Source: Malacoraja senta (lineage: Eukaryota). Taken from it: a stretch of DNA of 46,428 nt. Position 1 is the stretch's first letter. Each line of letters begins with the position of its first letter. Made by a program: the position numbers. The stretch spans positions 1-46,428 of the forward strand of contig JAXLNO010004364.1 in assembly GCA_038087875.1 (NCBI GenBank). Direction: 5' to 3'. This document shows, in pieces, positions 21,001 to 24,000 of this stretch.

Positions 21001-24000
21001 ATTTCCTATCCGCAGTAACTAATGAGAAGATCATGGAAGCTAATGAGTTGAATCATAGGAGTTGTGATGTCTTAGATCATAACCAAATGACCAAAGAGGA
21101 GCTAATGGCAGCGTTCAAGTGCATTACGGTGGATAAATCCCCAGTGCCTTACAACTGCATCCTCTGATCTTGTGGGAAGCTCAGGAAAATAATTTACTTT
21201 CCGTCAGAGGTATTTACATCATCTTCCGCTGCAGATTAATCTCCAAATGACTGGAGGGTGGCTGATACTGAAGTGTAATTGAAGAAGGACATTAGGGCCA
21301 AGCCAGGGATCTGCACCAGTGAGCCTGACGTCATTGGTGGGAATGTCCTTCATGACAGGAACTACCAGTATTTGGACAGGCACGGACTGATTAGGGATAG
21401 TCCTAAGTTTACACGAAGATCTAGATCACTTGGTAGGGTGGGCCAAGGATTAGGGACTGCATGGCTTGTGTTTGGGAAATTGTGCCTCATGAACCTGATA
21501 GGTCTGGCATGGTGGGCTGGCGTGGAAGGTTAGATCATATGAAACCCAACACGAGCTAAATTAGCTTGGAGAAAGTGGACTGCTGCAGGGGTCAGTGCTG
21601 AGACCACTGTTGTTTGTTATCTACATTAAAATTTCTTGGCACTCACATAAGCAATAACCTAAAATGGAAAATCAATTCAGATCACATTTATAAAAAAGCC
21701 AATCAAAGACTTTTCTTTCTCCGTCAGCTCAAGAAGTTCAGAGTGAGGAAACATCTCCTAATCCGATTTTACACAGCCATCATCCAAAGCATGCTCACTT
21801 CATCAATACCAGTTTGGTACAGCAGCTTAGACACTCACTCCCGTAATAAACTACAGCGCATTGTCAACAAAGCATCCAAAATCATCAGCACCCCCTCCCA
21901 TCAATAGATTCACTCAATCTCAAACGGTCTGTGTCAAGGGTGAAGAAAATCATTTCTGATCCCTCCCACCCAGCTCACCACATCTTCCACCTGCTGCCGT
22001 CAGGAAGGCGCTACAGCTCACTGCCCGCCAAAACATCACGATTTAAAAACAGTTTCTACCCATATGCAATTCGAACTCTGAACACTCTATGACAACATCA
22101 CATAGCCACCTTGTGCATGTACTGTATACTGTATGTTGTTGTGTTTTATGTTATGTTTGACGGGAATCAGCCTATTATGTAACATCCTGTACTGAACATG
22201 AATTCCACCAGCTTGACTGTGTGGTCATTAAATAATCTGAATCTGAATCTGATTAACAGTTTGCCATACAATATAGTGGACATTGATAGTAAGTTTGCAG
22301 ATGACACCAAAATCAGTGGACAGTGAGGAAGGATAAGTTTACCAAAAGATCTAGATCAGCTGGGAAGGTGAGCCAAGGAATGCCAAATGGAATTTAACTC
22401 TGACTTGTGAGGGGGTGTTGAACTTTGGTCGATCAAACCAGGGCTGGACTTACACATTAAATGGTAGAGCCCGGAGAGTGTTGTAGAACAGACAGATGTG
22501 GAAATGCAGGGGCATGGTTCGCTGAGAGTGGCGAGTTAGGTGGACAGGGAGCTGGGGTGGCTTTTGGCAGACTGCCTTCAATAGGCAGTATCTGGAATGA
22601 GTTGCCAGAGGAAACTATAAAAGTAGATAGAATTCTTATTATCAAACAAATCCGATATATGGATGAGAAGGATATGTGGCCAAAGGGACGAGCCCAGAAA
22701 ACCAGCTTGGTCGGCATGCACAAGATAGATGATGGCGAGACTCAGGGAAAGAACAGCCTGTGGGGCAGTTCAACGCGGTGGGAAATGTACTGTTGTTGGG
22801 TAGATTCTAACTCTGCAGAAACCCGCCAGTCTCCGGGAAATCCGTGCAATTGTTCCAAATATCTCACCGAGTTCAGGTCAATTACAGAATTTCCAAAGAC
22901 CATAAATTAATGAAACACAACTGGGTAAAATGGAATTGAGGAATTGGTCTTACCTGAAGTCACTGTCAGCGAGGTTCCTGCACCCCAGTTGTCATCTCGC
23001 ACAGTAATAGGTGGCCGTTGTCGTCCAGTCTCAGGCCGTTCATTTGGAGATAGACATTGCTGATGTCCTTGGAAACCTCGAATCGGCCGCTGAAGACAGG
23101 CGCGTAATTTTTGTCACCATTATACCTCATCCTCGCCACCCACTCCAGCCCTTTCCCGGAGACCTGTTTCACCCAGTGTAGCTGCTGAGGCTGAACCCAC
23201 TGGTTGCACAGGTCAGTTTGAGGGACCCTCCAGACTTTGCCACCCCGGTCGGGGTCTGATTCAGCACGACCGCGGATCGAACGCCTGCCAATAAAAGAGA
23301 AACAATGTTGAATAAAAACTTGAAGAGGCAGAGGGTGAAAGAGTGTCCAAGAAGTAGCTCGGCCCCGAGTGGGGGTGACGCCCACCTGGCAGACAGGACA
23401 GAAGGAGACAGAGATAAGCAGCGACCCACATCACTCTGAGCACTGACACACACTTGGACACTCCTTTTTTTTAAATTTCAAAATATACTTTATTCAAGTA
23501 ATAAATATTTACAATACGTGAACCGTGCGAAAAATTAATCCGGCATTTTCGGAGGCTATACAAATTGTCCAATGCAGTTAATACATTTTTTTTCAAATTC
23601 CACAAATCCGTCCCCCACCCGTGCCACTCATGTGGCCCCCTGGCGTGGGATACCTTCCCTTATTTTGAGGGGCGTCTCCACCATACCGTGCCCCCCATGT
23701 CCAGCAGCGGGAGGACCCTAGACTGCGGCCCTCCCCCATCGAGCCTTGGCGTTGGCTGCACCAAGCTTCAGTGCATCCCTCAGCACGTACTCCTGCAGTC
23801 TGCAGCGGGCCAGTCGGCAACATTCCCTGACGGACATCTCGCTCTGCTGGGTGGTGAACAACGCTCGGGCAGACCAAATAGCGTCTTTCGCCGAGTTGAT
23901 GACCTTCCAGCAGCATTCGATGTCAGTCTCTGAATGTGTCCCTGGGAACAGTCCGTAAATCACAGAGTCCTCTGTGACGGAGCTGTTCGGGATAAAGCGT

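What the first reader, a model, noticed from the sequence alone, without database searches (positions are those of the whole stretch)
22954..23003. Germline V-J fusion with no D, no RSS and essentially no N-region
Seen: TGT GCG AGA | T | GAC AAC TGG GGT GCA GGA ACC. Only one base lies between CAR and DNWGAG, and it may itself be J-derived. No heptamer or nonamer remains. The leader intron and J-C intron are retained, so this is a DNA-level join, not a retrocopy. Established: germline-joined IgH genes occur in cartilaginous fish, and their clusters normally use V-D-D-J with long-spacer RSS on both V and J. Inference: either both D segments were trimmed away entirely without TdT addition, or a 12/23-violating or non-RAG deletion was fixed in the germline. 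The join is out of frame.
Basis: partly seen in the sequence, partly recalled or inferred. Interest (0 to 1): 0.68.

Follow-up and report, generated by a model that had tools for sequence, protein, structure and literature searches.

The report
Dead skate antibody gene, pre-joined V-J
This is a broken, non-functional copy of a skate IgW antibody heavy-chain gene whose V and J pieces are already fused in the assembled DNA with no D piece between them, an unusual detail of a phenomenon long known in sharks and skates.

Summary
On the minus strand, TGT GCG AGA (23003-22995) is followed by one T (22994). J then runs GAC AAC TGG GGT GCA GGA ACC ... to 22954, with a GT donor after it. The leader intron and the J-C intron are kept, and no RSS lies at or near the joint. 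The first constant exon (15613-15305) is 82-89% identical to skate IgX/IgW heavy chains, so this is an IgW cluster of a skate.

Gene models of relatives that read through their RSS place the germline V end about 2 nt, and the J start about 7 nt, beyond the joint. At most one base is therefore unassigned: no D and no N.

- a 7-nt deletion in CDR1
- a +1 insertion in FR3
- a LINE whose poly(A) ends 33 nt upstream of the ATG
- no octamer in the window
- no CH2 or later exon in the 15 kb downstream

Without the single T, V and J would be in frame.

Best reading: an old RAG-type, TdT-free germline join, a known kind of event, that lost both D segments. Whether by trimming, by a direct 23/23 join or by later deletion cannot be told from this window. 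Germline origin was not tested. Interest is low to moderate.

The parts
23386..23431 (-). Leader exon (M-W-V-A-A-Y-L-C-L-L-L-S-C-L-P-G), ending on a GT donor
   Evidence: tblastn hits to residues 1-16/18 of skate IgX/IgW proteins, 81-89% identity.
23285..23385 (-). Leader intron, retained (GT...AG, 101 nt)
   Evidence: Sequence read directly.
22995..23284 (-). V exon of an IgW/IgX-type VH, ending TGT GCG AGA; disabled by two internal frameshifts
   Evidence: Three-frame translation. tblastn to P0005, P0007, P0015, P0019, P0020 and P0008. Pfam V-set 24.8 bits for the FR2-FR3 stretch. Closest V regions are about 70% identical.
23176..23177 (-). Site of a 7-nt deletion in CDR1: only 2 nt lie between S-S-Y and W-V-K-Q, where relatives have 3 residues after the aligned S-Y/S-N
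   Evidence: Frame change from frame 2 to frame 1, compared with P0007, P0015 and P0019.
23018..23019 (-). One extra A in FR3, between the D-D and T-A-T-Y-Y-C codons; second frameshift
   Evidence: Frame change from frame 1 back to frame 2, compared with L-R-L-D-D-T-A-T-Y-Y-C of P0005/P0007.
22994..22994 (-). The single T between V (AGA) and J (GAC AAC TGG). It creates TGA in the Cys frame. It may be J-derived, an N base or a later insertion.
   Evidence: Relatives have J = ...Y-L-[D/E/Y/G]-[Y/D]-W.
22954..22993 (-). J segment remnant (D-N-W-G-A-G-T-S-L-T-V-T-S), followed by a GT donor at 22953-22952
   Evidence: tblastn 85-92% to the J of P0007, P0015, P0019 and P0020.
15614..22953 (-). J-CH1 intron, 7.3 kb, retained; holds open stretches that resemble the 3' ends of the window's LINE reverse transcriptases
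   Evidence: Open frames listed (for example 16736..17383 and 19245..19598, minus strand). The 16739..17383 frame had no Pfam match, so the LINE label rests on likeness to the other LINE frames of the window.
15305..15613 (-). CH1 exon of IgW/IgX: open, with AG acceptor and GT donor intact, in phase with J
   Evidence: Sequence. Pfam C1-set E 1e-13. 82-89% identity to skate IgX/IgW in the local tblastn. 24 proteins passed E <= 0.001, most of those examined carrying skate, ray or shark IgW/IgX-type V-J-C.
23465..28698 (-). LINE directly upstream of the leader. AATAAA at 23494..23489 and a poly(A) run at 23472..23465 end 33 nt before the ATG. The LINE separates the gene from any promoter.
   Evidence: Pfam: ZCCHC3-type RBD (27757..28698), endonuclease (26027..27163) and RVT_1 (25075..26073), all minus strand. 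Tail read. No octamer in the window. No target-site duplication found.
6270..6928 (-). Possible remnant of the cluster's C region: a copy of the intron that precedes the CH4-like exon, stopping where the plus-strand copy is 15 nt short of its exon; no exon follows
   Evidence: blastn 95-97.5% identity to 40885..41687 on the plus strand. No Ig domain found in 1..15300 by tblastn.

Best explanation
This is a decayed, germline-joined IgW (skate IgX) heavy-chain cluster.

Inferred origin: an ordinary V-D-D-J-C cluster was cut at its recombination signals by the RAG recombinase in a germ-line cell. The coding ends were nibbled by a few bases and ligated without TdT additions. This is the way germline-joined shark light-chain genes are thought to arise. 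In this case nothing of either D segment survived, so V (minus about 2 nt) abuts J (minus about 7 nt).

The product is non-functional and has drifted as a pseudogene. It has a TGA and a frame shift at the joint, a 7-nt deletion in CDR1 and a +1 insertion in FR3. A LINE sits between promoter and leader, and the downstream constant exons are lost or displaced.

Shown here: the fused structure, the retained introns, the absence of RSS, the IgW identity and the extra lesions.

Inferred only: that RAG made the joint, that it happened in the germ line, and how the D segments were lost.
For: - Structure and frames.
- IgW/IgX identity of CH1, and V/J homology.
- RSS completely absent: 4 perfect heptamers in 46 kb, none near the joint. 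11 relaxed RSS-like sites against 7.0 expected, none at the joint.
- Breakpoints sit at the expected coding ends. In 10 of the 25 related proteins that carry a V end (11 of 26 V ends), the model reads C-x-x-D-T-[V/A/C], which is V + GA + heptamer. Six models read C-D-Y-L just before the W of J, which is heptamer + J start. The joint therefore lies about 2 nt inside V and about 7 nt inside J.
- Expressed cDNAs carry 8-14 residues between Cys and Trp (P0015, P0020, P0021). This gene has 4.
- Passages of Lee et al. 2000 (PMC2193156) describe germline-joined nurse-shark NS4 genes with the RSS fully excised, a few bases lost from the coding flanks and 'little evidence of TdT activity'. That is the same signature.
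- Reviews and a primary paper (passages) state that cartilaginous-fish IgH clusters occur as VD-J, VD-DJ or VDJ in the germline, and that clearnose skate has germline-joined VDJ.
- Several independent lesions argue for an old inherited pseudogene rather than a fresh somatic joint.
Against: - No DNA of an unrearranged cluster from this genome or a relative could be reached. The V and J germline ends are inferred from amino-acid read-through in other species' gene models, not from the parental cluster.
- A joint that lacks both D segments and any N is not among the IgH forms listed in the passages I read (VD-J, VD-DJ, VDJ).
- The same exon has suffered other indels, so the present joint need not be the original one.
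- Germline status rests on the assembly and on the gene's decay, not on a test of non-lymphoid DNA.
- The RSS spacer of J in skate IgW could not be determined.
Confidence: 0.7

Rival explanations
1. Secondary deletion. The cluster was first joined as an ordinary V-D(-D)-J with D and perhaps P/N bases. After it became a pseudogene, a small deletion (with or without the T insertion) removed the CDR3 core, leaving V next to J.
For: The same V exon shows a 7-nt deletion in CDR1 and a 1-nt insertion in FR3, so small indels have hit this 340-nt stretch at least twice. Without the T the joint is in frame, which suggests the T may itself be a late insertion.
Against: The deletion would have to remove exactly the 15-30 nt between the V and J ends and stop within a few bases of both inferred germline coding ends. 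No trace of D-like sequence remains.
Confidence: 0.17
2. Direct V-to-J join. RAG paired the V signal with the J signal (23/23, against the 12/23 rule) in a germ-line cell and excised both D segments in a single step.
For: There is no D and no N, and the trimming of both ends is modest. Read-through of V signals in relatives fits a spacer of about 23 nt (P0027). Koralov et al. 2005 (PMC1237122; abstract and introduction read) show that 23/23 VH-to-JH joining happens in vivo in mice at low frequency.
Against: The spacer of the J signal in skate IgW was not determined here. The horn-shark pattern of long spacers on both V and J is recalled, not seen in any call. 23/23 joining is inefficient. Sequential joins with complete D loss give the same product.
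Confidence: 0.15
3. Non-RAG deletion. A replication-slippage or end-joining deletion of the roughly 0.5-1.5 kb between V and J happened to remove the signals and the D segments.
For: The region is rearrangement-prone: LINE insertions, an inverted duplication and other indels.
Against: Both breakpoints fall within 10 nt of the inferred coding/heptamer borders, which a random deletion would rarely do. No microhomology explains the exact joint: the shared G-A-C-A string of V end plus heptamer and of J would predict a joint without the T.
Confidence: 0.04
4. Somatic B-cell rearrangement or assembly artefact captured in the assembly, not an inherited allele.
For: The tissue source is unknown. The window alone cannot prove germline origin.
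Against: Somatic joints are polyclonal and should not form a consensus. The gene is promoter-less (a LINE 33 nt upstream of the ATG, no octamer) and carries two further frameshifts, which fits long decay. The joint is embedded in 46 kb of contiguous sequence without N.
Confidence: 0.03
5. Retrocopy of a B-cell transcript.
For: None specific. Germline-joined V genes made by retrotransposition are recalled from marsupial TCR-mu. I saw only the title and abstract start of PMC7615758 in a listing.
Against: The leader intron (101 nt) and the 7.3-kb J-CH1 intron are retained with intact splice sites.
Confidence: 0.01

Closest known systems
Germline-joined IgH clusters of sharks and skates (VD-J, VD-DJ, VDJ forms; horn shark, clearnose skate)
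   Same: Cluster-type heavy-chain gene whose V-region segments are already fused in inherited DNA, with introns kept. Many such genes are not expressed (passages in PMC5192425, PMC3308330, PMC2435157, PMC2193156).
   Different: The forms listed there keep D sequence. Here nothing is assignable to D. The isotype is IgW/IgX, not IgM. I found no statement on joined IgW clusters in the passages I read. The original skate IgX and horn-shark papers were not held.
Germline-joined NS4 (kappa-type) light-chain genes of nurse shark (Lee et al. 2000, PMC2193156)
   Same: Signature of the joint: RSS wholly excised, a few bases lost from the V and/or J flank, little or no N addition. [quoted passage not shown]
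   Different: Light-chain clusters have no D, so V-J is their normal product. Here two D segments had to disappear.
Nurse shark IgM1gj (functional germline-joined VDJ heavy chain)
   Same: Fully pre-joined heavy-chain V region in the germline (passages in PMC4279169 and PMC5192425).
   Different: IgM1gj is in frame, expressed in neonates and keeps a VDJ CDR3. The gene here is out of frame, promoter-less and decayed.
Direct VH-to-JH joining in DH-less mice (Koralov et al. 2005, PMC1237122)
   Same: A heavy-chain V joined to J without D. This shows that 23/23 recombination can occur in vivo (abstract and introduction).
   Different: That case is somatic, in an engineered/cloned mouse lacking D elements. 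Here the joint is a natural, apparently inherited one in a cluster that should have had D segments.
Germline VDJ-joined segments in the duplicated, non-functional IgH locus of channel catfish
   Same: Germline-rearranged heavy-chain segments sitting in a locus with non-functional C exons (one passage in PMC2193156).
   Different: That case is a bony fish with a translocon locus, and D is retained. I did not see the primary paper.

Membership tests
IgW / skate IgX heavy-chain cluster | Split leader plus V-set domain of the IgX/IgW VH type | tested here: met
   Leader and V hit skate IgX/IgW proteins. V-set 24.8 bits, just under the 26-bit cutoff because only an open fragment could be scanned. 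About 70% identity to batoid IgW V regions.
IgW / skate IgX heavy-chain cluster | J with the W-G-x-G-T motif and a donor splice site in phase with CH1 | tested here: met
   D-N-W-G-A-G-T-S-L-T-V-T-S followed by GT. J plus CH1 give S-E-I-K-T-L-P-S-V-H-I-T, as in P0005/P0007.
IgW / skate IgX heavy-chain cluster | CH1 closest to IgW/IgX rather than IgM | tested here: met
   Best named hits include Raja eglanteria and Leucoraja erinacea Ig heavy chain, Triakis IgW and a Pristiophorus IgW short form. Skate IgX/IgW proteins are 82-89% identical in the local tblastn.
IgW / skate IgX heavy-chain cluster | Further constant exons (CH2 onward, secretory tail) downstream of CH1 | tested here: not met
   No Ig domain on the minus strand in 1..15300. 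There is only an intron-like remnant at 6270..6928 and one CH4-like exon on the opposite strand at 41703..42000. The exons could lie beyond the window edge.
Germline-joined Ig gene | V and J contiguous with no RSS, introns retained | tested here: met
Germline-joined Ig gene | Joint at the coding ends, with trimming and no or few N bases (RAG-type coding joint) | tested here: inconclusive
   The joint fits ends inferred from amino-acid read-through in other species.
Germline-joined Ig gene | Present in non-lymphoid (germline) DNA and inherited | not testable with these tools
   No reads and no other individuals. Indirect support comes from the multiple old lesions.
Functional pre-joined heavy chain (IgM1gj-like) | Open reading frame through V-J and a V promoter | tested here: not met
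   Three frame breaks and a TGA at the joint. No octamer in the window. LINE poly(A) 33 nt upstream of the ATG.
Direct 23/23 V-to-J join | Both parental signals have 23-nt spacers, and no D-derived base lies in the joint | not testable with these tools
   A V spacer of about 23 nt is inferred from P0027 read-through. The J spacer could not be derived from protein. The D sequences are unknown.
Processed retrocopy of a rearranged V region | Intronless | tested here: not met
   Both introns are retained.

The most novel reading that the evidence does not exclude
The joint is the untouched product of a single RAG event in a germ cell that paired the V and J signals directly. That would be a natural, inherited 12/23-rule violation. 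As made (without the later T), it was an in-frame, D-less, light-chain-like IgW V gene with a four-residue CDR3, which may once have been expressed before it decayed.
Probability: 0.12. Interest if true: 0.5.

Novelty: new member of a known kind. Interest (0 to 1): 0.25.

Why it matters
Germline-joined antibody genes are the main natural evidence that the RAG recombinase has acted in the germ cells of cartilaginous fish.

A heavy-chain joint with no D and no N adds a data point on three things:
- how such events process coding ends
- whether D segments can be skipped
- that IgW clusters, not only IgM and light chains, undergo germline joining

Because this copy is a multiply broken pseudogene, it has no bearing on skate immunity today. 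Its value is as a molecular fossil. That value would be realised only by comparing it with the unrearranged sister clusters of the same genome.

Tried and rejected
- RSS search. Exact heptamers and nonamers and a relaxed heptamer-spacer-nonamer scan with shuffles found nothing at the joint and no excess in the window. No unrearranged D or J, and no signal joint, lies here.
- Octamer search: 0 matches.
- Target-site duplication of the upstream LINE: none found, so the insertion is inferred only from the poly(A) tail and the Pfam domains.
- Second V, J or C copies in the window for a parent-offspring comparison: only one V and one J. The V-J region has no paralogue in the window.
- The original skate IgX and horn-shark cluster papers (PMID 2123029 / PMC332511, and PMC454840) are not held. 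For PMC2191167 and PMC2192082 only short stubs are held, with nothing useful.
The phage, plasmid and E. coli collections are irrelevant. All comparison with relatives is therefore at protein level.
- I did not build or search a joined (spliced) V-J-CH1 model. Exons were searched one at a time (CH1 alone, an open V stretch alone).
- No structure, complex or atlas job was run, because none bears on the question.
- The retrocopy reading was rejected on the retained introns.
- The microhomology-deletion reading was rejected because the shared G-A-C-A string predicts a joint without the T.
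Full report
**What is there.** The feature lies on the minus strand. Reading 5' to 3':

| Feature | Coordinates | Note |
|---|---|---|
| Leader exon | 23431..23386 | ends on a GT donor |
| Leader intron | 23385..23285 | 101 nt, ends in AG |
| V exon | 23284..22995 | ends TGT GCG AGA |
| Single T | 22994 | |
| J segment | 22993..22954 | GAC AAC TGG GGT GCA GGA ACC TCG CTG ACA GVG-type J, read as D-N-W-G-A-G-T-S-L-T-V-T-S; donor GT at 22953-22952 |
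| J-CH1 intron | 22953..15614 | 7.3 kb |
| CH1 exon | 15613..15305 | open, with AG acceptor and GT donor, in phase with J |

The J bases as read are GAC AAC TGG GGT GCA GGA ACC TCG CTG ACA GTG ACT TCA G. The finding's coordinates, 22954..23003, run exactly from the Cys codon to the last J base. The window has no N.

**Identity.** Pfam calls the CH1 exon a C1-set domain (E 1e-13). It calls the open FR2-FR3 stretch V-set at 24.8 bits, just under the 26-bit cutoff. I searched the CH1 exon alone against the large protein collection, and 24 proteins passed E <= 0.001.
- The named hits include Raja eglanteria and Leucoraja erinacea Ig heavy chain, Rhinoraja longicauda and Amblyraja radiata heavy-chain-like models, Triakis IgW and a Pristiophorus IgW short form.
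- In a local tblastn the skate IgX/IgW proteins are 82-89% identical to CH1. The best are 89% to an unnamed record (P0006) and 87.5% to Rhinoraja P0007.
- The same proteins hit leader, V and J in the right order, with summed E-values of 1e-36 for P0007 and 2e-32 for P0005.
- A search with the open V stretch alone found batoid IgW-type V regions at about 70% identity.

The gene is therefore an IgW (skate IgX) cluster of a skate. Among annotated proteins it is closest to Rhinoraja. I do not take the contig for human. I searched exon by exon and did not build or search a joined V-J-CH1 model.

**Checking the claims one by one.**
- *One base between C-A-R and D-N-W-G-A-G:* true.
- *No heptamer or nonamer:* true.
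  - The window has 4 perfect heptamers, none near the joint.
  - A relaxed scan gave 11 weak sites, against 7.0 expected (maximum 14 in 30 shuffles), none at the joint.
  - The only heptamer-like string there is the one embedded in the Tyr-Cys codons of V.
- *Introns retained:* true.
- *Out of frame:* true. The Cys frame reads TGA at the joint, and J is offset by +1.

**Where V should end and J should begin.** No DNA of an unrearranged cluster could be reached, but many automatic gene models of relatives read straight through their recombination signals.
- Of 29 proteins fetched, 25 carry a V end (26 V ends in all).
- 11 of those ends, in 10 proteins, read C-x-x-D-T-[V/A/C]. That is what V plus two bases plus the heptamer consensus translates to.
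- In P0027 the read-through continues for eight residues to Q-K-P, which fits a nonamer after a spacer of about 23 nt.
- On the J side, six models read C-D-Y-L just before the Trp, and three more read H/Q-C followed by another J start. That is heptamer followed by a J that begins (D)-Y-L-x-x-W.
- Against these inferred ends, the joint here keeps V up to AGA (about 2 nt lost). It keeps J from T-GAC-AAC-TGG (about 7 nt lost, if the T is the last base of the Leu codon).
- D-N differs from the common skate D-Y by one base.
- Rearranged cDNAs carry 8-14 residues between Cys and Trp (P0015, P0020, P0021). This gene has 4.

At most one base is unassigned, so no D and no N is a fair description. The caveat is that the ends are inferred from amino acids of other species.

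The gene is dead in several further ways.
- A 7-nt deletion in CDR1 shifts the frame. Only two bases lie between S-S-Y and W-V-K-Q, where relatives have three residues after the aligned S-Y/S-N.
- One extra A between the D-D and T-A-T-Y-Y-C codons of FR3 shifts it back.
- A LINE on the same strand ends with AATAAA and a poly(A) run only 33 nt upstream of the ATG.
  - It carries a ZCCHC3-type RNA-binding ORF1, an endonuclease and a reverse transcriptase.
  - It spans about 28.7 kb to 23.47 kb.
- The window has no Ig octamer.
- No target-site duplication was found, so the insertion is inferred from the tail and the domains.
- No CH2 or later exon lies in the 15 kb downstream of CH1.

If the single T is removed, V and J read in frame as C-A-R-D-N-W-G-A-G-T. 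The out-of-frame state could therefore be a later one-base insertion, like the one in FR3.

**Mechanism.** The joint has the signature reported for germline-joined shark light-chain genes. In passages of Lee et al. 2000 (PMC2193156) the signals are completely excised. [quoted passage not shown] The authors conclude that RAG acted in germ cells.

Passages in reviews and in Malecek et al. 2008 establish three points:
- Cartilaginous-fish IgH clusters are V-D1-D2-J-C.
- Many are partly or fully joined in the germline (VD-J, VD-DJ, VDJ).
- Clearnose skate has germline-joined VDJ.

The present gene is thus a new example of a known phenomenon, with the unusual detail that no D sequence survives. Both breakpoints lie within 10 nt of the inferred signal borders, so a RAG cut is much more likely than a random deletion. 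How the D segments vanished cannot be decided here. The options:
1. Sequential joins with complete trimming.
2. A direct V-to-J join against the 12/23 rule. This is known to occur at low frequency in D-less mice (Koralov et al. 2005, PMC1237122; abstract and introduction read).
3. A later small deletion in the already dead gene.

I could not verify it for skate IgW.

**Germline or somatic.** The window cannot prove inheritance. Several things argue against a somatic or assembly origin:
- A single B-cell joint should not become an assembly consensus.
- A promoter-less cluster is a poor substrate for somatic rearrangement.
- The three independent additional lesions fit long decay.

I put the somatic or artefact reading at about 3%.

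**Literature limits.**
- Papers of which I saw passages only: PMC2193156, PMC5192425, PMC4279169, PMC3308330, PMC8355894, PMC2435157 and PMC12227049.
- PMC1237122: abstract and introduction.
- PMC7615758: a search listing only.
- Not held: the skate IgX paper (Harding et al. 1990) and the horn-shark cluster paper (Kokubu et al. 1988).
- My searches turned up no description of a D-less germline-joined heavy-chain cluster or of a joined IgW cluster. That is weak evidence, because the key older papers and subscription journals are not in the library.
- Supplements were closed. The junction tables of PMC2435157 might show how often D is fully lost somatically.

**Verdict.** This is a decayed germline-joined IgW pseudogene with a D-less, N-less V-J joint. 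It is a new member of a known kind and of low to moderate interest (0.25). Its worth is as a fossil of RAG activity, and it can be read properly only next to the unrearranged sister clusters.

Noticed in passing
window 41703..42000 (+), with 40885..41687 (+) and 6270..6928 (-): A lone, intact-looking IgW CH4-type exon (AG acceptor, GT donor, C1-set E 1.6e-20, 86% identical to residues 475-574 of Rhinoraja P0005) lies on the opposite strand 18 kb upstream of the V. The roughly 800 nt of intron before it are duplicated in inverted orientation at 6270..6928 (95-97.5% identity). The homology stops where the plus-strand copy is 15 nt short of its exon. This suggests an inverted duplication or inversion that broke up the cluster's constant region.
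   Followed up: partly
window 23465..28698 (-): A LINE with a ZCCHC3-type RNA-binding ORF1, an endonuclease and a reverse transcriptase. Its ORFs are fragmented, and its AATAAA and poly(A) tail end 33 nt before the Ig leader ATG. No target-site duplication was found.
   Followed up: partly
window 1403..5218 (+): A long open frame of 1271 residues with endonuclease and reverse-transcriptase domains in AT-rich sequence (GC 0.31-0.36): an apparently intact L1-like LINE ORF2, possibly young.
   Followed up: partly
window 7473..10415 (-), 12390..14603 (+), 30333..34890 (+): Three copies of one LINE family with near-identical reverse-transcriptase stretches, one of them inverted. One frame of 653 residues is open (32929..34890). 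These copies produce the strong alternating GC skew of the window.
   Followed up: partly
window 38955..40095 (+): About 1.1 kb of C/T-rich low-complexity sequence (GC skew -0.66) that is open in all three plus-strand frames as Ser/Pro/Leu-rich pseudo-protein. It is probably a simple repeat, not a gene.
   Followed up: no
window 41359..41483 (+) and at least 9 other places (e.g. 30794..30913, 31934..32056, 38342..38443): A repeat unit of about 120 nt, present at 91-99% identity in seven of those places and about 70-78% in three more, often at the edges of LINE fragments.
   Followed up: no
proteins P0012 (Heterodontus) and P0013 (Scyliorhinus), residues about 110-125: These IgW-like gene models read Y-Y-C-H-S-D-Y-[L/F]-D-Y-W. 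A heptamer-like H-S sits directly between the Cys of V and the J start. Whether this is a modelling shortcut across an unrearranged cluster or an odd germline arrangement could not be told at protein level.
   Followed up: no
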